A stretch of 42,302 bases of DNA from a virus. Lineage: Duplodnaviria; Heunggongvirae; Uroviricota; Caudoviricetes. The notes under the pieces are model-generated. The model had not been told where the DNA came from and searched no databases. It saw only the letters and a list, made by a program, of their open reading frames with translations. The position numbers were made by a program, and so were the translations under genes. Position 1 is the stretch's first letter; the number at the start of each line of letters is the position of its first letter. The stretch lies in IMG/VR virus record IMGVR_UViG_2713896905_000008; one strand, 5' to 3'. Shown in pieces: positions 1 through 42,302 of the stretch.

Positions 1-759
1 TTAAATTCTGGTCCTTACAATATCAACCTGAAGATTCTTATCTTGTGCAGATTGATAAATGACAAATCTCTTATTTCCTGCATTAAAAGAAGTAGACAAA
101 ACCAGACAATTATCATAACGGGCAAGGACATAATACCAACCATCATTATAATTAATCATTTCATATTCTTTCTTAAACTGTGGTTTGTAATATCCTGTCA
201 GAAATGAAAAAAGCCAAAAGTATGCCACAAAAGAGACCATCACAATCTCAAAAAAATGTTTTTTTATAAATGGCTTATCATAAAAGCATGATACCGATAA
301 AAATCGCCCGTAAAATCTTATCGCAATTGTAACACCCAGTGCAATAGCAGCTGACAGTAGCAAAAGAGGTACCTGAATCTTCTGTCTCAATATAGAAAAC
401 TCAATAATAGCCGGTACAAACAATAATTCCACAGCAAAATAAAGGCGAAATACATTTAGCTCCTGCATAGAGTGTTTTCTTTTCACTGCGAAAAAAAATA
501 CAACGCCAACACCCCAGCCGATAAGAAATATAGCTATGACAATAACTGCAAAAAATAAACTTCTGGCAACATCATCAACACCAGCACCTACAATCCACCA
601 TGGAAAGCCGTAGTAAAAAGAAGTGCCCCAGCCATAGAAATAAGCACTCCCCCACCCAAGGCATCCCATGTAGGCAATAAAAAGTGAAGAACTCCTGAGC
701 AGCGCACCATCCTTCATAACCACCTCAAAACAAGATGATAACATTGATTTACAATTCAT
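1..759 (-). CDS. polytopic membrane protein of unknown function (accessory gene in prophage remnant)
   Basis: Complete 252-aa ORF with stop at 1-3. Translation is dominated by hydrophobic helices (FFAVIVIAIFLIGWGVGVVFFFAV, LLLLSAAIALGVTIAI, IVMVSFVAYFWLFSFL). A+T-rich by eye. No family recognised. Confidence 0.45.
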   Translation of the reverse strand: MNCKSMLSSCFEVVMKDGALLRSSSLFIAYMGCLGWGSAYFYGWGTSFYYGFPWWIVGAGVDDVARSLFFAVIVIAIFLIGWGVGVVFFFAVKRKHSMQELNVFRLYFAVELLFVPAIIEFSILRQKIQVPLLLLSAAIALGVTIAIRFYGRFLSVSCFYDKPFIKKHFFEIVMVSFVAYFWLFSFLTGYYKPQFKKEYEMINYNDGWYYVLARYDNCLVLSTSFNAGNKRFVIYQSAQDKNLQVDIVRTRI

Positions 760-1003
760 AACAAAAGCAATTCAATGCCGTCAAGAGGCTATAGGCTAAA
801 AAACTCTATTACATTGTAGTCAGCATGTTTACTGCACAAGTACAATTCAGAGCATAAAAAAAACCACTCGGCGGCGGGTTTATACATTTCTTATAACATA
901 TCAAATTTGCACAAAATACATGGCTTTCAATCCAGTTTTACAATATAAAACGTGCTTCATTACACCCCTGCATTCAGTAAATGTCTCAGACCTGTTTTTG
1001 ATG

Positions 1004-1246
1004 TCACTCCCACCAGTGATACCAGCTCCTGGTATTCATAGGTCTTACGTCCGCCAGTTCGTTCTTCACACCCTGTGCCGCCAGCCAGATTAACTTCTTC
1101 AGCCGCTCCAGTGTTTTACCTGCAATTTTTCGTGAGCCTGACAGAGCCTTAAACTCGCTCCATGTCCACTGCGTTATGGCAACCTGATGCTCCCAGCGAA
1201 CATTTTCACTGTAACTCCAAAAGAAGTTCTGCCATATAAGACTCAA
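1004..1246 (-). CDS. hypothetical protein (prophage remnant)
   Basis: 80-aa ORF downstream of rusA on the same strand. No motif recognised; may be a gene fragment. Confidence 0.2.
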   Translation of the reverse strand: MSLIWQNFFWSYSENVRWEHQVAITQWTWSEFKALSGSRKIAGKTLERLKKLIWLAAQGVKNELADVRPMNTRSWYHWWE

Positions 1247-1249
1247 ACA

Positions 1250-1675
1250 TCATTCATTCCCCAGTTCGGTGATGGTCAGTTCCAGCTTCCCATCTTTGGT
1301 AACAGGCATATTCACAACACGGTAATCAACGACCTGAGTATCATCCAGCCAGAAACCTGCTTTGGTGAGTGCATCAAAAGCGGCTTTTTGCAGATTATCC
1401 AGGTCACGGCGACGACGATCCGGCATATGGCACTCGATGCAGATTTTCACAGGAGTAACCAAACCCGATATCCAGCATTGAGTCTTTGATGATTCGGGCA
1501 ACGTTATCGCGGTATGCCTGCCCTTTTGCACTGATGTGCGTGCGCCCGCAATTATGCGATAGTAGCGATTATTGATCGACGGCCAGGGTAGTGTGATGTT
1601 GTAAGTATCCACACCTTGATTACCTCCTCTTTCAGCCAGATAACCAACTTTCTCGCCATACCTTCCTGTGCGCAC
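1250..1675 (-). CDS. rusA: RusA-family Holliday-junction resolvase, probably disrupted
   Basis: N-terminal [17 protein letters not shown] and C-terminal [38 protein letters not shown]...ELGNE match RusA as I recall it. The central ~31 codons match RusA only when read in another frame ([31 protein letters not shown]), implying two compensating frameshifts. True start is probably internal to the ORF-track span. Confidence 0.65.
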
Positions 1676-1857
1676 TCTTTTGCATACCCAGCGTCAACAA
1701 AGTGTGTGCGGTGATCGATGCTACATTTCACGTCTGAGTGCTGACTACTAACCAGTTCCACAATCTCAACACTGGTCATGGATGCCTTGTCGTTAAAAAT
1801 TTCTGTACTCACTCTTCCTCCTTTGGGATAAATTCTTTTGATAACGTGCGCATCCAC
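1552..1857 (-). CDS. YbcO-like (DUF1364-type) prophage protein, N-terminus atypical
   Basis: C-terminal [30 protein letters not shown] resembles the nin-region protein that precedes rusA in DLP12-type prophages. Overlaps rusA start as in that arrangement. Confidence 0.45.
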
Positions 1858-1930
1858 ACCTATTGGTGCCGAACCCGTCTTAAGTTATCCTTATGATTTA
1901 TATAAATAAAATAATCAAAGAAGGTTCGAC

Positions 1931-2182
1931 ATGGATTTTGCAACAATTACAAGTAGTGTTGTGTTGAGTGCATGTGTCGCAGGCCTGGCTTCGCTGATTA
2001 ATAGTGCCTGGCAGCGCAAATCAGAACGAAAAATTGAAGTAGAGCATCGGGCTGCAGAAACTCGGGCAAAAATCAGAGAAATGGCTCTTACCCTTGCATT
2101 GAAGGAATGGGAATCTCACCAGGCCGTATCGAAAGCTAAAGGCGGGACGGTCAGCGGCCCGGAAGTTTACGTATTTCGATAA
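1931..2182 (+). CDS. small membrane-anchored protein, unknown function
   Basis: 83-aa ORF with an N-terminal hydrophobic helix (ITSSVVLSACVAGLASLINSAW) followed by a charged helical region. Preceded by AAAGAAGG SD-like sequence. Confidence 0.3.
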   Translation: MDFATITSSVVLSACVAGLASLINSAWQRKSERKIEVEHRAAETRAKIREMALTLALKEWESHQAVSKAKGGTVSGPEVYVFR

Positions 2183-2633
2183 CTTCGTATGCTCAACTCG
2201 ATAGATTCATGATTGAGAATCTCAGACAGACTCAATACGACGCGATGTGCGCAGTCGCAGTGATTCAGGCAGAGATCGAGCGATATCGTGAGAAAAATGG
2301 GCTACTAATGCCATAACCACAGTCAGCGCTTGTCATCTTTCCAAATTCTCATATCAGACTTGCGCCCGATAAACCGACGAAAACTATTTAAAACCCATCG
2401 AGTGAAATAATCTCTAAAACCAAAGAGATACCAGGTGAAAATATTCACGATAAAATGCCCGGTCAGAGCCCCCGATACCGCATGCAAGAACAGTAAAAAA
2501 ATCATATGTGTTCATAAATATCAGCCCTCATCGTTTTGCCTGGCATATCCTTTACCGGCAATCTTCTGTATGCGCTAAGCCTGGATACCACATCACACTT
2601 GATTTAGATCTGTCACGGCGAACTGCCGTTCAA

Positions 2634-3134
2634 GATAAATGCGGGATGCTACTTGCTCTTGTTACTGGACAACGTTTAGGCGATATCTGCAATTTGAAAT
2701 TCTCTGATATCTGGGACGACATGTTGCACATTACTCAGGAAAAAACCGGTTCAAAACTTGCTATTCCGCTTAACCTGAAATGCGATGCTCTGAATATTAC
2801 CCTTCGTGAAGTTATATCTCAGTGCAGGGATGCTGTTGTTAGTAAATATCTGGTCCATTACCGTCACACAACCTCTCAAGCAAACAGAGGGGACCAGGTT
2901 TCTGCAAATACTCTGACAACGGCTTTTAAAAAGGCCAGGGAAAAATGTGGCATAAAATGGGAGCAAGGAACTGCGCCCACATTTCATGAGCAGCGATCTC
3001 TGTCAGAACGGTTATATCGGGAACAGGGTCTGGATACGCAAAAGTTGTTAGGTCATAAATCCAGAAAAATGACCGACCGATACAATGATGATCGTGGTAA
3101 AGACTGGGTTATCGTAGATATGAAAACAGCATAG
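2634..3134 (+). pseudogene. 5'-truncated tyrosine integrase (paralogue of the int at 41175-42302)
   Basis: Translation LLALVTGQRLGDICNLKFSDIWDD...HEQRSLSERLYREQGLDTQKLLGHKS...DRYNDDRGKDW aligns with the C-terminal ~165 aa of the full integrase at the window end. The N-terminal two-thirds are absent; the upstream ORF sequence is unrelated. Confidence 0.8.
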
Positions 3135-3144
3135 AAAATAGCCA

Positions 3145-3180
3145 GTTTTGGGGAAGGGTTTTGGGGAAAGTTTTGGGGAA
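3145..3180. repeat. three tandem copies of GTTTTGGGGAA between the truncated integrase and the icd terminator
   Basis: cagTTTTGGGGAAGGGTTTTGGGGAAAGTTTTGGGGAAga read directly. Confidence 0.7.
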
Positions 3181-3190
3181 GATTTTACAT

Positions 3191-3224
3191 CATCATAAAA
3201 CAACGGGCGTGTTATACGCCCGTT
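3191..3224 (-). terminator. intrinsic terminator following the icd 3' end
   Basis: Perfect stem AACGGGCG/CGCCCGTT with loop, followed on the minus strand by GTTTTAT. Lies about 20 nt past the icd-like stop. Confidence 0.6.
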
Positions 3225-3240
3225 TCAATATTTAACACAT

Positions 3241-3414
3241 GTAGTGATTACATATTCTTGATGATCGCGTCACCAAACTCTGAACATTTCAGCAGCTTAG
3301 CGCCTTCCATCAGACGTTCGAAGTCATAGGTTACGGTCTTCGCATTGATTGCGCCTTCCATACCTTTAACAATCAGGTCTGCGGCTTCAGTCCAGCCCAT
3401 ATGGCGCAGCATTA
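3241..3414 (-). pseudogene. icd: duplicated 3' end of isocitrate dehydrogenase gene (icdC-like att-site duplication)
   Basis: Minus-strand translation [54 protein letters not shown] is the Icd C-terminus. Homology stops abruptly at about 3414, where A+T-rich phage DNA begins. Confidence 0.85.
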
Positions 3415-3471
3415 GTTAGATAACTAAATCGTAACTATTTGACATAGCAGCATAATTTTACTAATTTGCAT

Positions 3472-3506
3472 ATAACTCATTAGCTCTTAGCATTTCCATA
3501 ACTCAT
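3472..3506. repeat. two direct copies of ATAACTCATT next to the att junction (candidate integrase arm-type sites)
   Basis: cATAACTCATTag at 3472 and cATAACTCATTga at 3497, within 100 bp of the icd/phage boundary. Confidence 0.35.
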
Positions 3507-3645
3507 TGATTATCAACATGTGTTTTTGAGTTTTGATAACCATTTTTAGCATAAAAATAGCAGTTAACATTTGCAGAAGTTAAGATCAGAGAAAATTTTT
3601 ACCCTGTAGGGTATTACGTCTTAAATGTGACTTTAATAAACAATT

Positions 3646-4479
3646 TTATTTCTGTAATCGATTTATATTAACGTAAAGCATCTCGATTAGTTCTTTTGCA
3701 TTTTTACTATAGTGCAATTCTCTATGGCAATTCGGACAAAGGGCAACACAGTTATCTGTTGTATCAGCACCACCTGAAGACAGGGGAATTACATGATGCA
3801 CTTCCAAGTATGGGCTTCCATCATTTAAATAAAACGGAGCATTTTTACCACAGTTTTCACATATACCTTTACTTTGCTGTAAAATCCAAGCTTTTACCAT
3901 CGGATCTCGGACATAAACTTTTTGTAGTCTTTCTACCTCAACTGGTTTCCTGGAGCCCTCGGGCTGACTCAACGTTTTCTTAATTAATTTACTAACCCTC
4001 ATATTCAGAAGCGATTCATCATCTGTAGGCTGAGAAAGCTCTGATAGTTCTCCACGTATTATAGACACCCAAAAACTGTCACTATAAATACCTGGAACAT
4101 TTATCAATATTCGTTTCGTTCTATTGCCGGAAGGAATTTCCTTTCTCCCCGTACGACTAAAATAAGCCTGATAACCACACATCTTCAAGCGTATATCGCG
4201 GGGGCTATTACCAATCAAAGTAAAATATTCACCAGGATGGATTTTTCTTTCATCCAAAGAATGCATATGTTTTCTGACTGATGATGACGCCAGATATACT
4301 ACGACTTGGGATACACCAGAATCAACCAACCGTTCAATGATATAATCAAGAGCGATATTGTAATCTTTGTTTCTGTCACCCGGCCCCCACGACTCAAGGA
4401 TTAGACCATAAACACCATCCTCTTCACCTATCAAACACTCAGCTTTCAGTTCAATTCCATTATTATCAAAAACATGCAT
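3646..4479 (-). CDS. mcrA: McrA, type IV 5-methylcytosine-specific restriction endonuclease (HNH)
   Basis: 277-aa translation matches E. coli McrA essentially end to end as I recall it (MHVFDNNGIELKAEC...CENCGKNAPFYLNDG...HHVIPLSSGGADTTDNCVALCPNCHRELH). Same position as in e14, next to pin. Confidence 0.9.
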   Translation of the reverse strand: MHVFDNNGIELKAECLIGEEDGVYGLILESWGPGDRNKDYNIALDYIIERLVDSGVSQVVVYLASSSVRKHMHSLDERKIHPGEYFTLIGNSPRDIRLKMCGYQAYFSRTGRKEIPSGNRTKRILINVPGIYSDSFWVSIIRGELSELSQPTDDESLLNMRVSKLIKKTLSQPEGSRKPVEVERLQKVYVRDPMVKAWILQQSKGICENCGKNAPFYLNDGSPYLEVHHVIPLSSGGADTTDNCVALCPNCHRELHYSKNAKELIEMLYVNINRLQK

Positions 4480-27406: not shown

Positions 27407-28582
27407 ATGGATATAACTTGTTTAGAATGTGGCAATGTTCTTGACGACCCAACTGTAGCTTGCGATAAATGCGGCGCCACGCCTCATGTTGTAGTGCTGG
27501 GCAAACAATCGTACTTTCCTATTGGTGCTGTAACAGCAAATCTTGAAAAAAATGATTCAAGAGCATTTGATTATCGATTAGGTGAAGTTTGGGATCTAAA
27601 AAATGAAGTCACATCTGAATTCATAACCAGAATTGAGAAAAAATTTAGCCGAAAAAACAAATTTCATAACTTCCTAGACTCAGATCACAACCCTTCATCC
27701 ATTCCTACGATCCTAAAAAAATACATTAATAAAAATAATGAATTCATTGATTTATCTAGAGCTATAATAGAGAAGCTTAAACATAATGCTAATAACGAAT
27801 CGAGAGTTGCCCAACTTCAGGGGGGGAGCGTTGTTTTCATCCACTATAAGTCTACCGAACCAGAGGATTTGGGAAAACTTCTAATCGTAATGGTTGATAA
27901 ACAAAGCGCCTATGACTTTGATTCGGATAAGTTGACCCCAACAAGATTAAATCCAATTAATACCGATGCCTTACGGCAGGCTGCGATGTTCGATTTAACT
28001 TTATTCGAAGCCAGTTATCCAGAAAACAAGGGTGACTCATATGTACATTTCTTGCAAGGTAAATCTAAAAGCGATTTTTTCAAAGACTCATTAGGTTGCC
28101 GACATGATTCGGACAATAAAAGAAGCATTCAGCAATTATTCAGTGCTATAGATATTTTTGCTAGTAAAAACTCACTCGGTCGTGTACTGCGTGATACTAT
28201 TGACAATGAAGTTAAATCCTTACTGGAAAAAAAATCAAAAGATAAATACGGAAATAAGTCCGTTAAGATAGAGGATATTTCAAAAATAATTGACTCATGC
28301 CTGACTGATTCACACAAATGTAAGGGAACGTTTGTCGATTTTGTTAATCTTAATGGTTTCCAGATTGATCCTCAATTTGAACCAACTCCTAAAGCAGCTG
28401 AAAGCGCGCTTACAATTGAAGTGGCAGATAACGACAATAATTTTAAGTTGAAAATAATGCGTGGAGCTATTGGAGACGAAAAGTCAAATAAGCCTGTAAT
28501 TCTCACTGACAACAAATGCGAAATTGTGATAAAATTGAGTCAGGCAAATTATGATGAACTCAAAAGATATAGAGACAGCTAA
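27407..28582 (+). CDS. zinc-ribbon protein with NdpA/YejK-like (NA37-type) region; first gene of a cargo pair
   Basis: 391 aa. N-terminal CLECGN...CDKCG four-Cys ribbon. Central region aligns by eye with YejK: GGSVVFIHY / GGFVLFCHY and YVHFLQGKSKSDFFKDSLG / [22 protein letters not shown]. A+T-rich. Confidence 0.6.
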   Translation: MDITCLECGNVLDDPTVACDKCGATPHVVVLGKQSYFPIGAVTANLEKNDSRAFDYRLGEVWDLKNEVTSEFITRIEKKFSRKNKFHNFLDSDHNPSSIPTILKKYINKNNEFIDLSRAIIEKLKHNANNESRVAQLQGGSVVFIHYKSTEPEDLGKLLIVMVDKQSAYDFDSDKLTPTRLNPINTDALRQAAMFDLTLFEASYPENKGDSYVHFLQGKSKSDFFKDSLGCRHDSDNKRSIQQLFSAIDIFASKNSLGRVLRDTIDNEVKSLLEKKSKDKYGNKSVKIEDISKIIDSCLTDSHKCKGTFVDFVNLNGFQIDPQFEPTPKAAESALTIEVADNDNNFKLKIMRGAIGDEKSNKPVILTDNKCEIVIKLSQANYDELKRYRDS

Positions 28583-28584
28583 TA

Positions 28585-29799
28585 ATGACAATTGCTGATG
28601 ACTTATCAAGATTAGCGCAGATTATTAACGGAGCCTCAAGCAGAGTTGAGGGCTACTACACTGTCATAAGTCTTGAAGAAAGCATTGTTATTGTAAATAG
28701 TTCTGAAATAATTAGACTGTTACAATCTATAGGTTATAAAAAGGCAACAAACTGCATCGAAAATAATGAAATTTGGCTAGATCGCCAAGCTTCATCTTGG
28801 GATGACGCTATAATTTATGAGAATGTTGAGTCTTTTTGGTCTAGAGTAAACACCCAAAACGCTCTTCCGAAAAATTATATCATCGGAACGCCGTTAATAC
28901 TCCCTACTTCTAAGAATGAAAGCATCGAAAAAATCCATATTTTCTTTATGTGGAAAGATATCCTTTCATTAATTGCTGATCATCATAACAGTGACTGCTC
29001 TGTCTTATTTTTCACCAATGAAGACAAAAGTTATACAGTCGAACTCACGCATTTTTTACAATATAGCGAGATTAATCGCTTATCGAACTCGTCTCTTAAA
29101 TATGAAATTATAAAGGAGCTTCTCGACACAATAAAAATCAATGATTTACACAAAAGCGAGCGCAAGCTCGTTATACGTTCAGCCATAAACGAAGTATTTA
29201 AAGCAAATGGTACATTCAATTTCTTTGACTTGCTTAACTCTACTGAACTCGTCAGAAAAAAATATGATGAACTATATGAGATTTACACAAAGAGGTTTTC
29301 TGTAAATAAAATTCTTAACGAACTCGATGAGAAAAATCTTGAGTTCACGAGTAAAATTAACGAATTCATATCATCTAATCAGACAAAAGCATTGACTATT
29401 CCCGGTGCATTAATAGCAGCTGGTGGCTTAGTGAAGGCTAATGAAACAACCGAAGCAATATTGATTATCGCAGGACTTTGGATGATAAAAAAAGTCAATT
29501 ACATTTCTATTGAGATATTCAATGAAACATTCGACAACTTACGTTCTCGAGTGGAGTCCGCTTTCGATAAGTATTTAAAGTTTGAAGAAAATAAAGAAAT
29601 CAAAGATAATGCAGATAGTATTAAGAGTAGCATTACAGGTTTGATTGATAAAGCTAAAAAAAGGATGAGAACTGTTAAATATCTCGCATCAGCCATGTTT
29701 TATGGAGGCCTTATTTACGTTGGATATAAACAGTTCCCAGTCTTTTTTGAAAAATCGGCAGTAAATCTATTTTATTTTTTATGCCATACTATAAGCTAA
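28585..29799 (+). CDS. protein with C-terminal two-helix membrane anchor; second gene of the cargo pair
   Basis: 404 aa, starts 2 nt after the upstream stop. Hydrophobic helices ALTIPGALIAAGGLV...AILIIAGLWMI and YLASAMFYGGLIYVGY. No enzymatic motif recognised. 3' end overlaps the Q gene stop convergently. Confidence 0.6.
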   Translation: MTIADDLSRLAQIINGASSRVEGYYTVISLEESIVIVNSSEIIRLLQSIGYKKATNCIENNEIWLDRQASSWDDAIIYENVESFWSRVNTQNALPKNYIIGTPLILPTSKNESIEKIHIFFMWKDILSLIADHHNSDCSVLFFTNEDKSYTVELTHFLQYSEINRLSNSSLKYEIIKELLDTIKINDLHKSERKLVIRSAINEVFKANGTFNFFDLLNSTELVRKKYDELYEIYTKRFSVNKILNELDEKNLEFTSKINEFISSNQTKALTIPGALIAAGGLVKANETTEAILIIAGLWMIKKVNYISIEIFNETFDNLRSRVESAFDKYLKFEENKEIKDNADSIKSSITGLIDKAKKRMRTVKYLASAMFYGGLIYVGYKQFPVFFEKSAVNLFYFLCHTIS

Positions 29800-30152: not shown

Positions 30153-31148
30153 TCAGGCCAGCACGCCAATTGCCAGCGCACGATCGATAAAACGAAATAT
30201 CAGCTCCAGCTGGGAGCCATACTTCTCTTCAAATGCCACGGTATCCGCATGCAGCTCGTCGTGATGCTTTCTGCACAAAGGCAACACAAAAAGGTCATGC
30301 GCTTTTGTTCCCATTCCACCCTGACCGTAACCTATCAGGTGATGGGGATCATCAGCGGGCCTTCCACAACATGCACACGGCTGTGTCTTAACCCAGCGCG
30401 TGTACTTTTCATTAACCCAGCGGCGACGTTTGGGGCGTAACATAAAAGACTCCGGCGACTCCGGATCCACTTTCAGCGCCAGCACCTTTTTCGCCTTATC
30501 CAGGATGATGCTGGTGGCAGGAACCGAAGGCACAAGGTCACTTTCCCGGGTGACAGACGGCACAACAGGCTTCGGTAATCTCAGTGCCTTACGGGCTGCA
30601 CTTTCCGGTAAGGCATCCGCCAGATCATTACGAATCAGCCACCAGCACAGTTCCGGCATTGTCACAACGTGACTGTCATCAAAACCGAGATCCCGACGCA
30701 CAACAGACAACACCCAGCGGGCACAGTTATCCGTTGCCATTGTTTCCAGCCGTTCCGTGAACTGATCGCGCAGCTGGTTATCGCAGTGCCAGCACAGACG
30801 GATTGCGCCCGGAGCGTGCCGCATTGTGGTCATGTTCTCGCTGTGCCAGTCGGAATGAGGCCACTGACAGCCCTTTTCACGAAGTAACCAGCTTTCAAGA
30901 CATTCCACGCCACCAGCACGACGGATCACTGCCTCATAGCGGAACACGGCCCGAACGGCAGGATCATCCGCCAGCGGTTGTGATGCCGCCGGAACGGCAC
31001 CACTGGCGAAAGATGAATAACGTTCTGGCTCAGGCTCCAGCAGGACACGCCCCTGCATAAACAGGGGCATCAGCTCTGTACCTGGTCTGAACAATACGAT
31101 CCCCATACGCGGGGCAATTTCAGGGGTCAGTAGTGCTCTCACGGTCAC
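30153..31148 (-). CDS. DUF968-like protein with C-terminal HNH-type Cys/His motif
   Basis: 331 aa; C-terminus CACCGRPADDPHHL...LCRKHHDELH; nin-region position. Confidence 0.5.
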   Translation of the reverse strand: MTVRALLTPEIAPRMGIVLFRPGTELMPLFMQGRVLLEPEPERYSSFASGAVPAASQPLADDPAVRAVFRYEAVIRRAGGVECLESWLLREKGCQWPHSDWHSENMTTMRHAPGAIRLCWHCDNQLRDQFTERLETMATDNCARWVLSVVRRDLGFDDSHVVTMPELCWWLIRNDLADALPESAARKALRLPKPVVPSVTRESDLVPSVPATSIILDKAKKVLALKVDPESPESFMLRPKRRRWVNEKYTRWVKTQPCACCGRPADDPHHLIGYGQGGMGTKAHDLFVLPLCRKHHDELHADTVAFEEKYGSQLELIFRFIDRALAIGVLA

Positions 31149-31966: not shown

Positions 31967-32356
31967 TCAGGCGGCTGCACCCGCCGGTTTCTCATACTTA
32001 CTGATAGTGATCTCGACCTTCCCTTCCGGGATAACCGGTCCCCACTCCACCAGCATTCTTTTCACCTGACTGTCGTCTTCCCACCCCCCCGCGTGGGTCA
32101 GGGCGTCAAACAGCGCCTTGTTATAGTTGTCCAGATCGCGGATCCTGTTATCCGGAGGAAACAACACGATCTCCACTGAAGCAGGTGCCGACGTTGGTTT
32201 CGGCAGACGACGTAACTGTTCAACTATTGCTGCGCACGCCGCGCTCTGGAATTTTCGCCCCGCCGCGCTTATCAGGCTCTTACCTGCAAACGCCCCTTTG
32301 TTGGGGTGTCGCCAGTACGTGTTCACGCTGGGCGGAAACGGCAGAATCAGCTTCAT
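31967..32356 (-). CDS. rusA: RusA-family Holliday-junction resolvase (intact copy)
   Basis: 129 aa with PPSVNTYWR and DLDNYNKALFDALTHAGGWEDDSQV, parallel to the RusA catalytic region. Confidence 0.75.
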   Translation of the reverse strand: MKLILPFPPSVNTYWRHPNKGAFAGKSLISAAGRKFQSAACAAIVEQLRRLPKPTSAPASVEIVLFPPDNRIRDLDNYNKALFDALTHAGGWEDDSQVKRMLVEWGPVIPEGKVEITISKYEKPAGAAA

Positions 32357-32679
32357 ACTTTCAGGCCCCTCTCATGTAACCAGTGGGCTGCACGCAGCCT
32401 GGCGTTTTCCTCACCGGCAAGCAGTGAGCGGATAATCCCGGCCGCCTCGCTGTCGTCGTCCTTCACCGCGGTATGAAGAGTGATACCCCGGGCCACGCCA
32501 CGCTTTATCGTGATGACGCCTTTTTTCTCCAGTGCGCGAAGATGCTCCACCGCTGCATTCACTGAACGGTATCCCAGCATGGTTGCCACCTCCTGATTGG
32601 TTGGCGGAAAGCCACGCTCTTTCTGGTAAGAAATCAGCATATCCAGCACCTGCTGCTGGCATTGAGTTAACGTCGTCAT
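32353..32679 (-). CDS. LexA-like winged-helix DNA-binding protein (no peptidase domain)
   Basis: 108 aa; QQQVLDMLISYQKERGFPPTNQEVATMLGYRSVNAAVEHLRALEKKGVI parallels the LexA N-terminal domain. Confidence 0.55.
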   Translation of the reverse strand: MTTLTQCQQQVLDMLISYQKERGFPPTNQEVATMLGYRSVNAAVEHLRALEKKGVITIKRGVARGITLHTAVKDDDSEAAGIIRSLLAGEENARLRAAHWLHERGLKV

Positions 32680-33362
32680 GCCGCCATCTCCCTGACCAGT
32701 TTTTCTGCCTGCTGGCGAACCTGCGCCAGAAAGGCCTCACCACATGCCTCAAGTTCATCGCGCCCGATGTAGCTGATTGCCGCTCCCTTCCAGGTCTTAT
32801 CGAAAACAGCAATAGCACCAGCGAAGAACGCTCCTGTCGGCACCTGCTTCTCATCCTTCGGGATAAACCAGACAGGCAGTTCAAAACCAATACGCCCGCG
32901 AATAAAAGCAATATGGTCCGCATCTTCCGGCCACCACACTTCGCTGGTGGCAGCTTTGATCAGGAAAACATAGCGCCCGCCCTTATCACGCATGGAACTG
33001 GCATGTTTCATGATGTAACGCATGCCGGTGATGTATTGCCCCTCATGCTGACTGGCGCGGCTGTATGGGGGATTACCAAAGGCAGCACCTTTAAGCTCCG
33101 CAAGACGTTCTGACCAGTCATGCGCCAGCGCGTTATCTTCCGCCGTGTAATACGCGGCACATTTGGCGTTATCACCGTCAGTAAACAGATCCAGAACAAA
33201 CGGGCCAAACAGGGTGTTAATTCCCCAGAAAATGTTGTCCGGCGTGCGCCACTGATCGCCCACTTCCTTCAGTTCATGGGCTGGTTTGTTCCGCAGTTCC
33301 ACCAGCGCCTGGCAATATTTATTACTCATTAAGCCCCCACGTAATTCCCTGACAGATACCAC
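32676..33362 (-). CDS. phage DNA N6-adenine methyltransferase
   Basis: 228 aa with NPPY catalytic motif (AAFGNPPYSRA). Confidence 0.7.
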   Translation of the reverse strand: MVSVRELRGGLMSNKYCQALVELRNKPAHELKEVGDQWRTPDNIFWGINTLFGPFVLDLFTDGDNAKCAAYYTAEDNALAHDWSERLAELKGAAFGNPPYSRASQHEGQYITGMRYIMKHASSMRDKGGRYVFLIKAATSEVWWPEDADHIAFIRGRIGFELPVWFIPKDEKQVPTGAFFAGAIAVFDKTWKGAAISYIGRDELEACGEAFLAQVRQQAEKLVREMAA

Positions 33363-36069: not shown

Positions 36070-36756
36070 GTGAAAACACTGGCAGAACGATTAAAGATAG
36101 GTAGAGAGAAAGCTGGCATGAGCCAAGCTCAACTAGCTGAAAAAATTGGACTTTCACAACAATCTGTAGCCAAAATAGAGAATGGCGAAACTCTACAACC
36201 GCGCAAAATTAAAGAAATTGCAAAAGTTTTAGGTGTATCACAAAAGTGGTTACAACTTGGTATTGAAGACAACGCATCCATACCTGATCTTGTTGTAAAA
36301 GAAGCAGAAAGCACCGCATTAGACCCCGATATTTTCGTAAACATTCCTGTTTTAGATGTCGAGTTATCGGCAGGTAACGGATGTCTGGCTGAAATAGTTG
36401 AATCAGCTATTGACTGGTTTCCGTTAAGAAGAGCAGATTTGAGAAAATCTGGCGTATGTGCATCTAATGCCAAGATCGTAAAAATATGGGGGAACAGTTT
36501 ATTACCGGTTCTCAATAATGGAGATCTTGTTGCCGTTGATATTTCTCAAACCATTCCTATTCGTGATGGCGATCTTTATGCCGTACGAGATGGTGTATTG
36601 CTAAGGGTTAAAATACTTATCAACTTACCTGACGGTGGCTTGATTCTTAGAAGCTTCAACAAAGATGAGTACCCAGATGAAATACTCACCTTTGAAGATA
36701 GACGAGCCAGAATTCATGTTATAGGTAGGGTATTCTGGTCATCGCGAACTTGGTAA
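36070..36756 (+). CDS. CI-like prophage repressor (HTH plus LexA/S24 peptidase-like domain)
   Basis: 228 aa; N-terminal HTH MSQAQLAEKIGLSQQSVAKIENG; C-terminal S24-like region (IWGNSLLPVLNNGDLVAVD). Probable GTG start. Confidence 0.8.
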   Translation: MKTLAERLKIGREKAGMSQAQLAEKIGLSQQSVAKIENGETLQPRKIKEIAKVLGVSQKWLQLGIEDNASIPDLVVKEAESTALDPDIFVNIPVLDVELSAGNGCLAEIVESAIDWFPLRRADLRKSGVCASNAKIVKIWGNSLLPVLNNGDLVAVDISQTIPIRDGDLYAVRDGVLLRVKILINLPDGGLILRSFNKDEYPDEILTFEDRRARIHVIGRVFWSSRTW

Positions 36757-37659
36757 TGCATCGAAAAGCATTTCTTCAGAAATAATTTTAAGTTTTGCAC
36801 CATTATCATCCCTATAAGATATAGCTTTTTCGATCTTCCTTCCGTGACTTGAGAATTTCCAATCACGGGAGGAAAGCGTCCCAATTACTAAAAAATCCAA
36901 CTTTTGAGTAATTCCACTACTGATGTTCCCACCAGCATTTTTAATCAAATTTTCAACTACGGCTCTCTTTCCTGCAACAAAAGTGCCTGTAAGACAATAG
37001 GTTTTACCCTCTAACTCTATCGAAGCCCCTACATCAATAGGCAGCCTGGTCGCCAAACCATCCACCACCCCACTTTCCAAGTCACATCCTGTGAAGTCTA
37101 CTAATGCCTTATGTAGAGTTAAACTCTCATCTTCAGTAATAACCCCATCTTTAAGAATTTCCTTTACAAGTGCATAAAGTTTTTTTCCTGGGTAGTTGTT
37201 CTTCAAAGCTCCATTTTGCTCAAGCCACCAATTAAGATATCTTATTTCTTCTTGAGTTAAGTTCCGATCAGCAATTAATCCTTTACATAGTCCATTAAGT
37301 AAATGGACATCTACATCCTTGGAGTAAAAATCAATTTCAGGGATATCAAGAATTTCCCTCTGTATTTGGAGAAGGCTATTTTTAAGGTCATCACGTTCTT
37401 CTGATGTGATTATTCCATCCGCAAGAATATCCGACACCCGTGCTGATAGACTTTTTATAACTCCATTATTGATAATCTGCTTTGCTTCAAGTAACCATGT
37501 ATCTAAGTAAAGAACCTCCTCTTCACGGACAACTCCATCTGCAATGATTCCATCAATGATGCTAATCAAGTTAGCAAATAACTTGTCCCGGTTCTGTGTG
37601 TAATTAAAAGCGTAAAGCGCGTCTTCCATACAACCTCCTTTTTTTGATAATCCTTGCAC
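36739..37659 (-). CDS. BRCT-domain protein with four N-terminal ~35-aa repeats, unknown function (cargo at rexAB-equivalent position)
   Basis: C-terminus LEGKTYCLTGTFVAGKRAVVENLIKNAGGNISSGITQKLDFLVIG...KLKIISEEMLFDAL parallels the LigA-type BRCT fold. N-terminal repeats each contain ..ADG.IT.EE...L.. A+T-rich; convergent with cI. Confidence 0.55.
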   Translation of the reverse strand: MQGLSKKGGCMEDALYAFNYTQNRDKLFANLISIIDGIIADGVVREEEVLYLDTWLLEAKQIINNGVIKSLSARVSDILADGIITSEERDDLKNSLLQIQREILDIPEIDFYSKDVDVHLLNGLCKGLIADRNLTQEEIRYLNWWLEQNGALKNNYPGKKLYALVKEILKDGVITEDESLTLHKALVDFTGCDLESGVVDGLATRLPIDVGASIELEGKTYCLTGTFVAGKRAVVENLIKNAGGNISSGITQKLDFLVIGTLSSRDWKFSSHGRKIEKAISYRDDNGAKLKIISEEMLFDALPSSR

Positions 37660-39404: not shown

Positions 39405-40229
39405 ATGTCTCAGAACTTAGACGCAACCGCAATTAATCAAATCCATGCCCTTATTTCTGCTCAGGGTGTTAATGAAATTATCAGTAAGATTGGTGCCGAC
39501 GCAGTGGCATTACCTGAAAATTTCCGCATTCATGATCTGGAAAAATTTAATTTAAATCGCTTCCGTTTCCGTGGTGCGCTTTCCACTGCCAGCATCGATG
39601 ACTTTACCCGTTATTCTAAAGATCTTGCAGATGAAGGCACCCGCTGCTTTATCGATGCCGATAATATGCGAGCCGTCAGTGTGCTTAACCTAGGCACTAT
39701 TGATGAACCTGGTCATGCAGATAACACCGCCACTCTCAAACTGAAAAAGACAGCACCGTTCTCTGCTCTGTTGTCTGTTAATGGCGAGCGTAACTCCCAG
39801 AAGTCACTGGCAGAATGGATTGAAGACTGGGCCGACTACCTTGTAGGCTTTGATGCTAATGGTGACGCTATTCAGGCAACAAAAGCGGCTGCGGCTGTCC
39901 GTAAAATCACGATTGAAGCAAACCAGACCGCTGATTTTGAAGATAATGACTTCAGCGGAAAACGCTCCCTGATGGAGTCTGTCGAAGCGAAGACCAAAGA
40001 TATTATGCCAGTGGCATTTGAATTTAAATGCGTTCCGTTTGAAGGTCTGAAAGAACGTCCGTTTAAATTACGCCTCAGCATTATCACTGGCGATCGTCCT
40101 GTACTGGTTCTGCGCATTATTCAGTTGGAAGCAGTCCAGGAAGAAATGGCTAACGAATTTCGTGATCTGCTTGTTGAGAAATTCAAAGACAGCAAAGTAG
40201 AAACCTTTATTGGTACTTTCACCGCCTGA
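39405..40229 (+). CDS. yfdQ: YfdQ-like protein (DUF2303-type)
   Basis: 274 aa; size and position as in the yfdP-yfdQ-yfdR arrangement of the CPS-53 prophage; assignment by family from memory. Confidence 0.5.
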
Positions 40230-40933: not shown

Positions 40934-41194
40934 ATGAGGTTATCAAAAATGCTTCAAATGCTGACACTTGAGGAATGGGCTGCGGAAAAATTTAGGAGTA
41001 ATCCTCCAAGTGTGTCCACATTGCGTCGTTATGCTAAGCAGAATTTATTTTGTCCACCAGCAATGAAACAAGGTCGACTCTGGCGAGTACGTGAGGACGC
41101 AGAGTTAGTTGGGGAATTAGTTACTCCTGTCATCAAGAAAAGTGATTCTATTATTCTACAAAGGATTTTAAGTAATGGCAGCCAGACCACGTAA
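40934..41194 (+). CDS. xis: excisionase (lambda Xis-like)
   Basis: 86 aa; LTLEEWAAEKF...STLRRYAKQNLFCPPAMKQGRLWRVREDAEL parallels lambda Xis; overlaps the int start. Confidence 0.75.
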   Translation: MRLSKMLQMLTLEEWAAEKFRSNPPSVSTLRRYAKQNLFCPPAMKQGRLWRVREDAELVGELVTPVIKKSDSIILQRILSNGSQTT

Positions 41195-42302
41195 AAATAA
41201 TGTCTCAGTCCCGAACTTGTATCCGCTCTATAGCAGAAAAGTAAATAAAGTCTATTGGCGATATAAGCATCCAGTGACCGGGAAGTTTCATTCTTTGGGC
41301 GCAAACGAAGCTGAAGCCATTGCTATTGCCACTGAGGCCAATACACGCCTGGCTGAGCAAAGAACCCGGCAGATTCTGGCTATCAGTGACAGGATCGCAA
41401 CCAGCAAAGGAAAAGCAATCACAACGTCAACCTGGTTAGATCGCTATCAAGCAATCCAGGATGACAGACTGAAAAGTGGCGATATAAAGCTCAACACCTA
41501 TAAACAGAAAGCCAAACCAGTATCCTTGCTCAGGGAACGAGCAGGAATGAAGTTAATTTCATCCGTTGATGTAAGGGATATAGCACAATTGCTTGACGAG
41601 TATATCACTGCTGGGCAACCGAGGATGGCGCAAGTAGTCCGCTCCGTTCTAATTGATGTATTCAAGGAGGCACAACACTATGGGGAGGTCCCTCCTGGCT
41701 ATAATCCAGCATTAGCGACCAAACAGCCCAGAAGAAAAATTACCCGACAACGGTTAAGCCTTGAAGAATGGCAAAAAATCTTTGATATCGCAGATGCCAG
41801 TCATCGTTATATGGGGAATGCCATGCTGTTAGCACTGGTTACCGGTCAGAGGTTAGGTGATATCTCGCGTATGAAATTTAGCGATATTTGGGATGATCAT
41901 CTCCATATCATTCAGGAAAAGACCGGGAGCAAAATCGCAATTCCTCTTTCTCTTCGTCTCAACGCGATTAACTGGAGTTTACGCGATGTAGTCGCTCGCT
42001 GCCGTGACTATGCAGTCAGCCCATACCTTGTACATTTTTTCCGTACTACTTCACAGGCTGAACGTGGCGCGCAGGTTAAATCCAATACATTGACCATGAA
42101 TTTCAGTAAAGCAAGGGATTTGGCAGGAATCGACTGGGGGGATGGATCGCCCGCAACATTCCATGAACAAAGATCTTTATCTGAACGTCTTTACAAACAA
42201 CAGGGGTTAGACACACAAAAACTACTTGGTCATAAATCACAACAACAAACCGATCGTTATCATGATGATCGAGGTAAAGGATGGAGCAAAGTAGCATTGT
42301 GA
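41175..42302 (+). CDS. int: tyrosine integrase (lambda Int family, e14 IntE-like)
   Basis: 375 aa, complete, with stop at the last three bases of the window. C-terminal catalytic region (HEQRSLSERLY, LLGHKS, DRYHDD). 3' end faces the window edge, where the att site is expected. Confidence 0.9.
   Translation: MAARPRKNNVSVPNLYPLYSRKVNKVYWRYKHPVTGKFHSLGANEAEAIAIATEANTRLAEQRTRQILAISDRIATSKGKAITTSTWLDRYQAIQDDRLKSGDIKLNTYKQKAKPVSLLRERAGMKLISSVDVRDIAQLLDEYITAGQPRMAQVVRSVLIDVFKEAQHYGEVPPGYNPALATKQPRRKITRQRLSLEEWQKIFDIADASHRYMGNAMLLALVTGQRLGDISRMKFSDIWDDHLHIIQEKTGSKIAIPLSLRLNAINWSLRDVVARCRDYAVSPYLVHFFRTTSQAERGAQVKSNTLTMNFSKARDLAGIDWGDGSPATFHEQRSLSERLYKQQGLDTQKLLGHKSQQQTDRYHDDRGKGWSKVAL

What the first reader, a model, noticed from the sequence alone, without database searches (positions are those of the whole stretch)
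1440..1530. rusA in the remnant carries a compensating double frameshift
The ORF is open end to end, but its central ~31 codons match RusA only in a different frame ([31 protein letters not shown]), while the flanks match in the ORF frame. This is a decay signature supporting the left region being a degenerating prophage; the intact RusA at 31967-32356 would be the functional copy.
Basis: partly seen in the sequence, partly recalled or inferred. Interest (0 to 1): 0.3.

Follow-up and report, generated by a model that had tools for sequence, protein, structure and literature searches.

The report
Double-frameshifted rusA pseudogene in prophage remnant
A phage-derived DNA-repair gene (rusA) in an old prophage scrap next to icd carries a one-base deletion and a one-base insertion 90 bases apart, so the reading frame stays open but 30 essential codons are scrambled; it is a dead gene shared by Escherichia albertii strains, which is ordinary.

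Summary
On the minus strand, the rusA-type ORF (1250-1612, 120 codons from the canonical GTG) differs from intact rusA by a 1-bp deletion (CC->C at 1556) and a 1-bp insertion (GG->GGG at 1464-1466). Codons 20-49 (window 1555-1466) are therefore read out of frame. This is about 25 nt right of the reported 1440-1530.

It is not a sequencing error. All 20 sequences I recovered (9 distinct alleles, from E. albertii genomes including the type strain and from gut metagenomes) carry both indels. No single-indel intermediate was found.

The gene looks dead:
- The shift removes the junction-inserting loop and helix alpha1.
- P12S and S13I hit residues invariant in 51 intact homologues.
- Polymorphism within E. 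albertii is 10 non-synonymous to 2 synonymous and includes D91V at a catalytic aspartate.
- The neighbours are fragments: the ybcO 3' end, the ylcG 5' end, an internal Q fragment and a truncated integrase.

An open frame after two random 1-bp indels is expected 8-13% of the time, so selection for "compensation" is not shown.

The second RusA (31967-32356) is full length with its catalytic motifs, inside a later-arrived prophage. Interest is low.

The parts
1250..1612 (-). rusA pseudogene: 363-nt ORF (GTG start aligned with the canonical rusA start; TGA stop at 1252-1250), open but internally frameshifted
   Evidence: Pfam RusA match limited to residues 53-114
1556..1556 (-). site of the 1-bp deletion (ancestral CGC CAT -> CGC AT; one of two C lost), at the codon 19/20 boundary
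   Evidence: alignments A1 and A2; present in all 20 E. albertii-type sequences
1466..1555 (-). codons 20-49 read out of frame ([30 protein letters not shown]); the ancestral frame encodes [30 protein letters not shown]
   Evidence: AlphaFold pLDDT below 50 over residues 14-47
1464..1466 (-). G run holding the 1-bp insertion (ancestral GG -> GGG) that restores the frame at Gly50
   Evidence: alignments A1 and A2; present in all 20 sequences
1609..1719 (-). 3' fragment of ybcO (last ~36 codons). Its TGA stop is mutated to TGG, and its 5' side is fused to unrelated sequence.
   Evidence: homology to DLP12-type loci ends at 1719; weak Pfam YbcO match to profile 54-91 of 92 only; alignment A1 column 72
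1221..1253 (-). 5' stub of ylcG (about 10 codons), where the DLP12-type homology stops
   Evidence: ylcG position taken from annotated loci
760..1221 (-). 3' part of a Q antiterminator gene plus downstream DNA; no 5' half
   Evidence: Pfam Phage_antiter_Q profile 102-164 of 220; ~86% DNA match to annotated Q genes
2508..3134 (+). integrase fragment of the remnant; the ORF matches only the Pfam Phage_integrase domain
   Evidence: Pfam Phage_integrase on residues 39-195 of the 208-aa ORF; gene callers give 136-180 aa products in other strains
3248..3412 (-). duplicated 3' end of icd separating the old remnant from the later prophage (E. coli matches begin at 3195; ORF 3248-3412). In the E. albertii type strain the remnant abuts the intact icd here.
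31967..32356 (-). second, intact RusA-family gene (129 aa) in the large prophage
   Evidence: Pfam RusA 52.7 bits over profile 1-123 of 124; 39% identity to K-12 RusA with RDLDN..K..DD conserved

Best explanation
This is a dead copy of a phage-82/DLP12-type rusA (Holliday-junction resolvase) gene. It lies in a small, old prophage remnant at the 3' side of icd that is shared by Escherichia albertii strains.

Two single-base slips occurred in short homopolymers: CC->C at codon 19/20 and GG->GGG at codon 49/50. Because they cancel, the ORF still runs to the native stop, but codons 20-49 encode unrelated peptide.

In the intact enzyme that stretch forms most of the flexible loop that enters the junction centre (R24 and T25 among the proposed base-recognition residues) and all of helix alpha1. 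The product should therefore neither fold nor bind junctions properly, even though the catalytic D70/D72/K76/D91 block is still encoded in frame.

Shown here: the two indels, their presence in every sampled allele, the loss of family signal, neutral polymorphism and fragmentary neighbours. Inferred: loss of resolvase activity, and the open frame being a by-product of chance rather than of selection.
For: Indels and frames.

Not an artefact:
- The exact 120-aa product lies on 6 independent metagenome or SRA contigs.
- All 20 sequences (9 alleles), including E. albertii NBRC 107761 and several NCBI assemblies, carry both indels.
- Named cluster members come from E. albertii KF1 and NBRC 107761.

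Loss of family signal: Pfam RusA gives 46.1 bits over residues 53-114, against 67.1 bits over 14-114 after in-silico repair. The PDB 1q8r alignment loses identity at residues 20-50.

Structure: intact RusA is modelled at pLDDT 89.4 with a hairpin at 18-27 and a helix at 29-44. The shifted protein scores 67.2, is below 50 over residues 14-47, and lacks those elements.

Role of the lost residues, from Macmaster et al. 2006, PMC1636454: the flexible loop (residues 15-28) inserts into the junction centre; N15, R16, R19, R24 and T25 are proposed to recognise sequence; the residues around S13 align the DNA.

Conservation: P12, S13, H20, G23, T25, H26, S28 and G31 are invariant in 51 intact homologues. 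The window has S12 and I13, and the shifted stretch replaces H20, T25, H26 and S28 (G23 and G31 happen to read Gly in the shifted frame).

Relaxed constraint:
- Substitutions specific to the albertii branch are 11 non-synonymous to 6 synonymous (omega about 0.55). Intact-to-intact pairs give 0.07-0.37.
- Within-albertii polymorphism is 10N:2S, including W10R, R19C, D65N/E, L71M and D91V.
- P = 0.0004 under omega 0.14 and P = 0.46 under omega 1.

Context of decay.

Chance of an open frame after two random 1-bp indels: 8-13%.
Against: - The ORF is still open in all 9 alleles and keeps a good Shine-Dalgarno sequence (GAGGAGG, 8 nt before the GTG). The catalytic C-terminal half is in frame in all 9 alleles, and D70, D72, K76 and D91 are unchanged in 8 of them.
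- The albertii-branch omega of about 0.55 is below 1, so part of that branch was under constraint, and I cannot date the indels within it.
- Counts are small: 12 polymorphic sites and 17 branch changes.
- The AlphaFold result for the shifted protein partly reflects the mismatch between that segment and the alignment rows.
- No expression or activity data exist.
Confidence: 0.88

Rival explanations
1. Selected compensation. A first frameshift truncated RusA, and a second indel was then favoured because it restored the catalytic C-terminal two thirds. The result is a functional or partly functional RusA variant with a novel 30-residue segment, i.e. a true pair of compensatory frameshifting mutations contributing to protein evolution.
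For: - The ORF is open in all 9 alleles, and both indels are fixed across sampled E. albertii.
- With the deletion alone the frame would stop 8 codons past the insertion site (stop at nt 163 of the repaired CDS), so the insertion fell in a narrow permissive window.
- The catalytic block 65-91 is intact in most alleles.
- The phenomenon is documented in other taxa (Biba et al. 2022, PMC8935012).
Against: - Within-species polymorphism is 10N:2S and includes D91V at a catalytic aspartate. This is incompatible with omega about 0.14 (P = 0.0004) and fits omega = 1.
- Invariant P12 and S13 are also replaced.
- The lost stretch holds the junction-entering loop and helix alpha1.
- Neighbouring genes are fragments, and no promoter-like site was found upstream.
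- An open frame arises by chance in 8-13% of random indel pairs.
Confidence: 0.06
2. Sequencing or assembly artefact: two homopolymer miscalls in this one assembly, with the real gene in frame.
For: Both indels lie in short homopolymers (CC and GG), which is the typical site of such errors.
Against: Identical indels occur in 19 other sequences from independent projects and platforms: NCBI assemblies, ENA metagenomes and Logan assemblies of SRA runs. These include the type strain, whose flanks are only 97.3% identical to the window.
Confidence: 0.01
3. A divergent but in-frame RusA variant whose central segment simply evolved fast, with no frameshift.
For: None beyond the open frame.
Against: - By my count from alignment A1, nucleotide identity to EC96 in the central 90 nt is about 93%, as high as in the flanks, while the protein match is lost.
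- The alternative frame gives 26/31 identities to RusA residues 20-50, E = 1e-18.
- The alignment needs exactly one -1 gap and one +1 gap.
Confidence: 0.01
4. Recoding: the ribosome shifts frame twice (programmed frameshifting), so that an authentic RusA is made from the interrupted gene.
For: None specific. Such 'savior' frameshifting is known for some indel-bearing genes (review PMC5009743, listed).
Against: - It would need two separate efficient shifts of opposite sign.
- Neither site (TAT CGC ATA; ATC GGG TTT) is a slippery heptamer of the X XXY YYZ type, by inspection of the sequence.
- The ancestral-frame sequence itself carries replacements at invariant residues, and the polymorphism is neutral.
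Confidence: 0.01

Closest known systems
RusA / Rus Holliday-junction resolvase of prophage DLP12 (E. coli K-12) and phage 82 (Pfam PF05866; PDB 1Q8R, 2H8C)
   Same: - The 499-nt segment containing the gene (window 1221-1719) is 89-91% identical at DNA level to the corresponding E. coli and phage 82 segments.
- Same position after ybcO and before ylcG, with overlapping start and stop signals.
- Residues 1-19 and 50-120 are collinear, and D70, D72, K76 and D91 are encoded.
   Different: - Codons 20-49 are out of frame.
- P12S and S13I hit invariant positions, and R22C, R58C, K101N and G107D also differ.
- The repaired protein is at most 88% identical to any intact RusA among 5.8 billion proteins.
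- It sits in a gene-fragment remnant rather than in a nin region.
[quoted passage not shown]
   Same: There are two indels not divisible by 3 whose sum is 0. The frame is restored, the intervening peptide is unrelated to the ancestral one, and the state is shared by many related genomes.
   Different: Described pCFMs of evolutionary interest lie in genes that remain under selection. Here the gene shows neutral polymorphism and sits among gene fragments, so it is a compensated-looking pseudogene and not a source of new functional protein.
Cryptic prophage remnants at icd in E. coli (e14 and its icd 3'-end duplication)
   Same: - Integration at the 3' end of icd with a duplicated icd tail.
- An integrase gene lies next to icd.
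- The adjacent large prophage in the window carries e14-type mcrA, pinE and intE.
   Different: - The remnant is not found as a block in any of 5,426 complete E. coli genomes.
- It is found in E. albertii, where it abuts the intact icd in the type strain.
- It retains only fragments of lambdoid nin-region and Q genes.

Membership tests
RusA family (PF05866) - as a gene lineage | Significant sequence match to the RusA profile and to solved RusA structures | tested here: met
   Pfam 46.1 bits against a cut-off of 22.8; PDB 1q8r E = 1e-47; DNA 89-91% identical to annotated rusA/rus
RusA family (PF05866) - as a functional enzyme | Full-length domain: the profile is matched from the N-terminal PPSxN motif to the C-terminal strands | tested here: not met
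   Only residues 53-114 (profile 49-123) match.
RusA family (PF05866) - as a functional enzyme | Catalytic residues D70, D72, K76 and D91 | tested here: met
   Present in the window allele. D91V occurs in another E. albertii allele, L018/L019.
RusA family (PF05866) - as a functional enzyme | Flexible loop (residues 15-28, with R24 and T25) and helix alpha1 (about 29-44); S13 region contacting DNA | tested here: not met
   Residues 20-49 are replaced by out-of-frame peptide. S13 is replaced by I and P12 by S, although both are invariant in 51 homologues. These elements are absent from the model and present in the intact model. Their roles are from PMC1636454.
RusA family (PF05866) - as a functional enzyme | Holliday-junction cleavage / suppression of ruv mutants | not testable with these tools
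   Needs biochemistry or genetics.
Pair of compensatory frameshifting mutations (functional pCFM) | Two indels whose lengths sum to a multiple of 3, frame open between them, seen in independent genomes | tested here: met
   -1 and +1, 90 nt apart, in 20 of 20 sequences
Pair of compensatory frameshifting mutations (functional pCFM) | The gene remains under purifying selection after the pair | tested here: not met
   10N:2S polymorphism, P = 0.0004 under omega 0.14, consistent with omega 1
Pseudogene in a cryptic prophage remnant | Disrupted reading frame relative to intact homologues, plus neutral substitution pattern | tested here: met
Pseudogene in a cryptic prophage remnant | Neighbouring phage genes truncated; no complete phage modules | tested here: met
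   ybcO 3' end only, ylcG 5' stub, Q 3' part, integrase fragment; only about 3.2 kb between the icd tail and the non-phage ORF at 1-759
Pseudogene in a cryptic prophage remnant | No expression | tested here: inconclusive
   The consensus scan found no sigma-70-like site upstream of the gene, but that scan is weak evidence. No transcript data are available.

The most novel reading that the evidence does not exclude
The 120-aa chimeric product is made in E. albertii. With its intact arginine-rich and catalytic C-terminal half but a new 30-residue segment replacing the loop and helix alpha1, it has acquired some altered role, for example DNA binding without junction resolution or interference with the incoming prophage's RusA. 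The second indel would then have been selected.
Probability: 0.04. Interest if true: 0.4.

Novelty: new member of a known kind. Interest (0 to 1): 0.12.

Why it matters
The importance is mostly practical.
- The ORF is open and passes the Pfam RusA threshold. It is deposited as "endodeoxyribonuclease RUS" in E. albertii KF1 and as a 58-aa hypothetical protein elsewhere. It is a clean example of an ORF that annotation by domain match would wrongly count as a functional resolvase.
- The double indel was present in every allele sampled here and was not seen in 5,426 complete E. coli genomes. It could therefore serve as a lineage marker.
- It shows that the icd-adjacent remnant predates the large prophage now lying between it and icd.

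Nothing here changes what is known about RusA or about frameshift compensation.

Tried and rejected
- Intermediate alleles with only one indel, or with none, on the albertii-type background. I ran exact-pattern scans of genome contigs, metagenome contigs (twice) and viral contigs (twice). They returned only the E. albertii type strain, which carries both indels, or nothing.
- A close intact relative of the repaired protein among 5.8 billion proteins. The best hit is 88% identical. The order and date of the two indels therefore cannot be inferred.
- Pairwise dN/dS of the repaired allele against intact alleles (0.17-0.32) overlaps the intact-to-intact range (0.07-0.37) and is uninformative alone. 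The branch-specific and within-species counts were the informative ones.
- The promoter/terminator consensus scan gave nothing usable.
- A literature search for E. albertii rusA found nothing relevant.
- The 58-aa cluster members briefly looked like deletion-only truncations, whose predicted length is also 58 aa. Their sequences show they are calls from Met63 of the same double-indel allele.
- Programmed frameshifting and an in-frame divergent variant were considered and rejected on sequence grounds.

Full report
**The observation.** The minus strand of the window has an ORF at 1250..1675 (141 aa from a distal GTG). The GTG at 1612-1610 aligns with the start codon of annotated rusA genes and gives 363 nt, i.e. 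120 codons plus a stop.

Six-frame translation shows that residues 1-19 and 50-120 of RusA are in the ORF frame. That peptide matches K-12 RusA residues 20-50 at 26/31 identities (E = 1e-18). The in-frame peptide [30 protein letters not shown] matches almost nothing (PDB 1q8r alignment).

DNA alignment with intact rusA of E. coli EC96 and K-12 DH10B needs exactly two gaps:
- a 1-bp deletion, CGC CAT -> CGC AT, with the remaining C at window 1556;
- a 1-bp insertion, ATC GGT -> ATC GGG T, in the G run at 1466-1464.

Codons 20-49 (window 1555-1466) are out of frame. By my count from alignment A1, the DNA of this stretch is about 93% identical to EC96, the same level as the flanks. The reported coordinates (1440-1530) are about 25 nt too far left, and the shifted stretch is 30 codons.

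**Is it real?** Yes.
- The exact 120-aa product is encoded on six independent metagenome or SRA-assembly contigs in the same gene context. These match window 1-4106 at 99-100%.
- A 32-mer from the shifted stretch occurs in only one of 185,579 species-representative genomes: Escherichia albertii NBRC 107761, the type strain.
- That locus matches window 1-3412 at 97.3% and has both indels.
- The protein cluster holds 17 members. The two that carry names are from E. albertii KF1 (141 aa, deposited as "endodeoxyribonuclease RUS") and from NBRC 107761. Most other members are 58-aa calls that start at Met63 of the same allele.
- I fetched DNA for these variants. All 20 sequences, 9 distinct alleles, are gap-free relative to the window, so they carry both indels.
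- No E. coli among 5,426 complete genomes has this allele; the best match is 91% identical.
- Scans for alleles with only one or neither indel found nothing.

**Context.**
- Homology to DLP12/phage-82-type DNA is limited to window 1221-1719. This covers the last ~36 codons of ybcO (its TGA stop is mutated to TGG), rusA, and about 10 codons of ylcG.
- Leftward comes the 3' part of a Q antiterminator gene (Pfam profile 102-164 of 220; 86% DNA match to Q genes).
- Rightward lie an unrelated stretch, then an integrase fragment that matches only the Pfam Phage_integrase domain (2508-3134), then a duplicated icd tail (ORF 3248-3412; E. coli matches from 3195).
- In the E. albertii type strain the remnant directly abuts the intact icd, followed by two further ORFs that I take, from recall and without testing, to be rluE and nudJ as in E. 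coli.
- In the window, a roughly 39-kb prophage lies between the remnant and where icd should be. It runs from mcrA/pinE at about 3.6 kb to intE at 41175-42302. The remnant is therefore older, and the big prophage arrived later.

**What the shift destroys.**
- AlphaFold2 with 51 intact homologues models intact RusA at pLDDT 89.4, with strand 3-9, turn 14-17, hairpin 18-21/24-27, helix 29-44, strand 55-62, helix 71-85 and strands 94-102 and 109-116.
- The window protein with the same alignment scores 67.2. It is below 50 over residues 14-47 and lacks the hairpin and the first helix. This partly reflects the mismatch between that segment and the alignment rows.
- According to the RusA-DNA complex paper (PMC1636454), residues 15-28 form the flexible loop that enters the opened junction centre. 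N15, R16, R19, R24 and T25 are the candidates for sequence recognition. The residues around S13 align the DNA. D70, D72, K76 and D91 are catalytic.
- In 51 intact homologues P12, S13, H20, G23, T25, H26, S28 and G31 are invariant. The window has S12 and I13, and the shifted stretch replaces H20, T25, H26 and S28.
- The Pfam score drops from 67.1 bits (repaired, residues 14-114) to 46.1 bits (actual, residues 53-114).
- Loss of resolvase function is thus a strong inference, but it has not been measured.

**Selection.**
- Pairwise dN/dS of the repaired allele against intact alleles (0.17-0.32) overlaps the intact-to-intact range (0.07-0.37) and decides nothing.
- Changes specific to the albertii lineage are 11 non-synonymous to 6 synonymous, omega about 0.55.
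- Within E. albertii I excluded the C-terminal tract of one allele (L025) that looks recombinant. The remaining 12 segregating sites are 10 non-synonymous and 2 synonymous in the present frame, or 9:3 in the ancestral frame. They include W10R, R19C, D65N, D65E, L71M, A81V, A92T and D91V at a catalytic aspartate.
- The probability of this split is 0.0004 under omega 0.14 and 0.46 under omega 1.
- The gene is therefore drifting now.

**Was the "compensation" selected?** It cannot be shown.
- With the deletion alone the frame would end at a TGA 8 codons past the insertion site. The insertion therefore fell in a permissive window of about 100 nt.
- This is compatible with selection, but also with modest luck.
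- Given the neutral polymorphism and the fragmentary neighbours, chance is the better reading.

**The other RusA.** The ORF at 31967-32356 (129 aa) matches the whole Pfam profile (1-123 of 124, 52.7 bits). It is 39% identical to K-12 RusA with PPSxN and RDLDNxxK...DD conserved. It lies between genes for a LexA-DNA-binding-domain protein and a KilA-N protein, downstream of a Dam methylase gene, in a prophage with a CI-type repressor. It is the only rusA in the window that looks functional by sequence.

**Comparison and verdict.**
- The closest known genes are rus of phage 82 (X92588.1, 90.6% DNA identity) and rusA of DLP12.
- The pattern is a pair of mutually compensating frameshifts, as catalogued by Biba et al. 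2022 (PMC8935012). It fails the criterion of continued purifying selection.
- It is an ordinary pseudogene in a cryptic prophage remnant that happens to keep an open frame.
- Its value is as an annotation caveat and as a marker of this E. albertii lineage.

Noticed in passing
window 3400-42302: A large prophage (~39 kb) sits between the old remnant and the expected position of icd. Its ends are e14-type (mcrA 3646-4479, pinE, intE 41175-42302). It also has a CI-type repressor (36070-36756), a BRCT-domain protein (36739-37659), Dam methylase (32676-33362), a DUF968/HNH protein (30153-31148) and a DUF2303 protein (39405-40229). E. coli matches to its right end are 95.7-98.4% identical.
   Followed up: partly
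window 27407-29799 (+): Two adjacent plus-strand genes lie inside the otherwise minus-strand prophage block: a 391-aa protein with a 37-kDa nucleoid-associated protein (NA37, PF04245) match, and a 404-aa protein with no Pfam match. This looks like a cargo or moron pair. I did not test it against defence-system libraries.
   Followed up: no
L025 1771-2418 (ENA metagenome scaffold): One allele has both indels, but from codon ~101 on it is E. coli-like (KMPVTKGGRLELTITEMGNG) and continues into an intact ylcG and a Q gene. It is either a recombinant between the remnant and a DLP12-type prophage or a chimeric metagenome assembly.
   Followed up: no
window 1609-1611 and 1552-1857 (-): The ybcO stop codon is mutated (TGA -> TGG; the same base change makes rusA N2D). 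A chimeric ORF (86-101 aa) therefore runs from unrelated upstream sequence through the ybcO tail and 20 codons into rusA, ending at a TAA beside the deletion site. From memory, its N-terminal part ([21 protein letters not shown]) resembles the start of Rha-type phage regulators. This was not tested.
   Followed up: no
L020 3153-3847 (CP030787.2): In one complete genome (organism name not given by the tools) an IS1 copy is inserted between the Q fragment and the membrane-protein gene of the remnant. This is further decay of the same locus.
   Followed up: no
window 1-759 (-): A 252-aa hydrophobic ORF lies left of the remnant. Precomputed annotations of its homologues give PF27470 (TfpB), but the Pfam copy used here found no family. 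Its relation to the remnant is unknown.
   Followed up: no
window 1250-1438 (-); cluster members P0123, P0125, P0127, P0128, P0130, P0133, P0134: Deposited annotations of the same allele disagree. It is 141 aa and called 'endodeoxyribonuclease RUS' in E. albertii KF1, a 58-aa hypothetical protein (from Met63) in many NCBI assemblies, and 120 aa in metagenome gene calls.
   Followed up: yes
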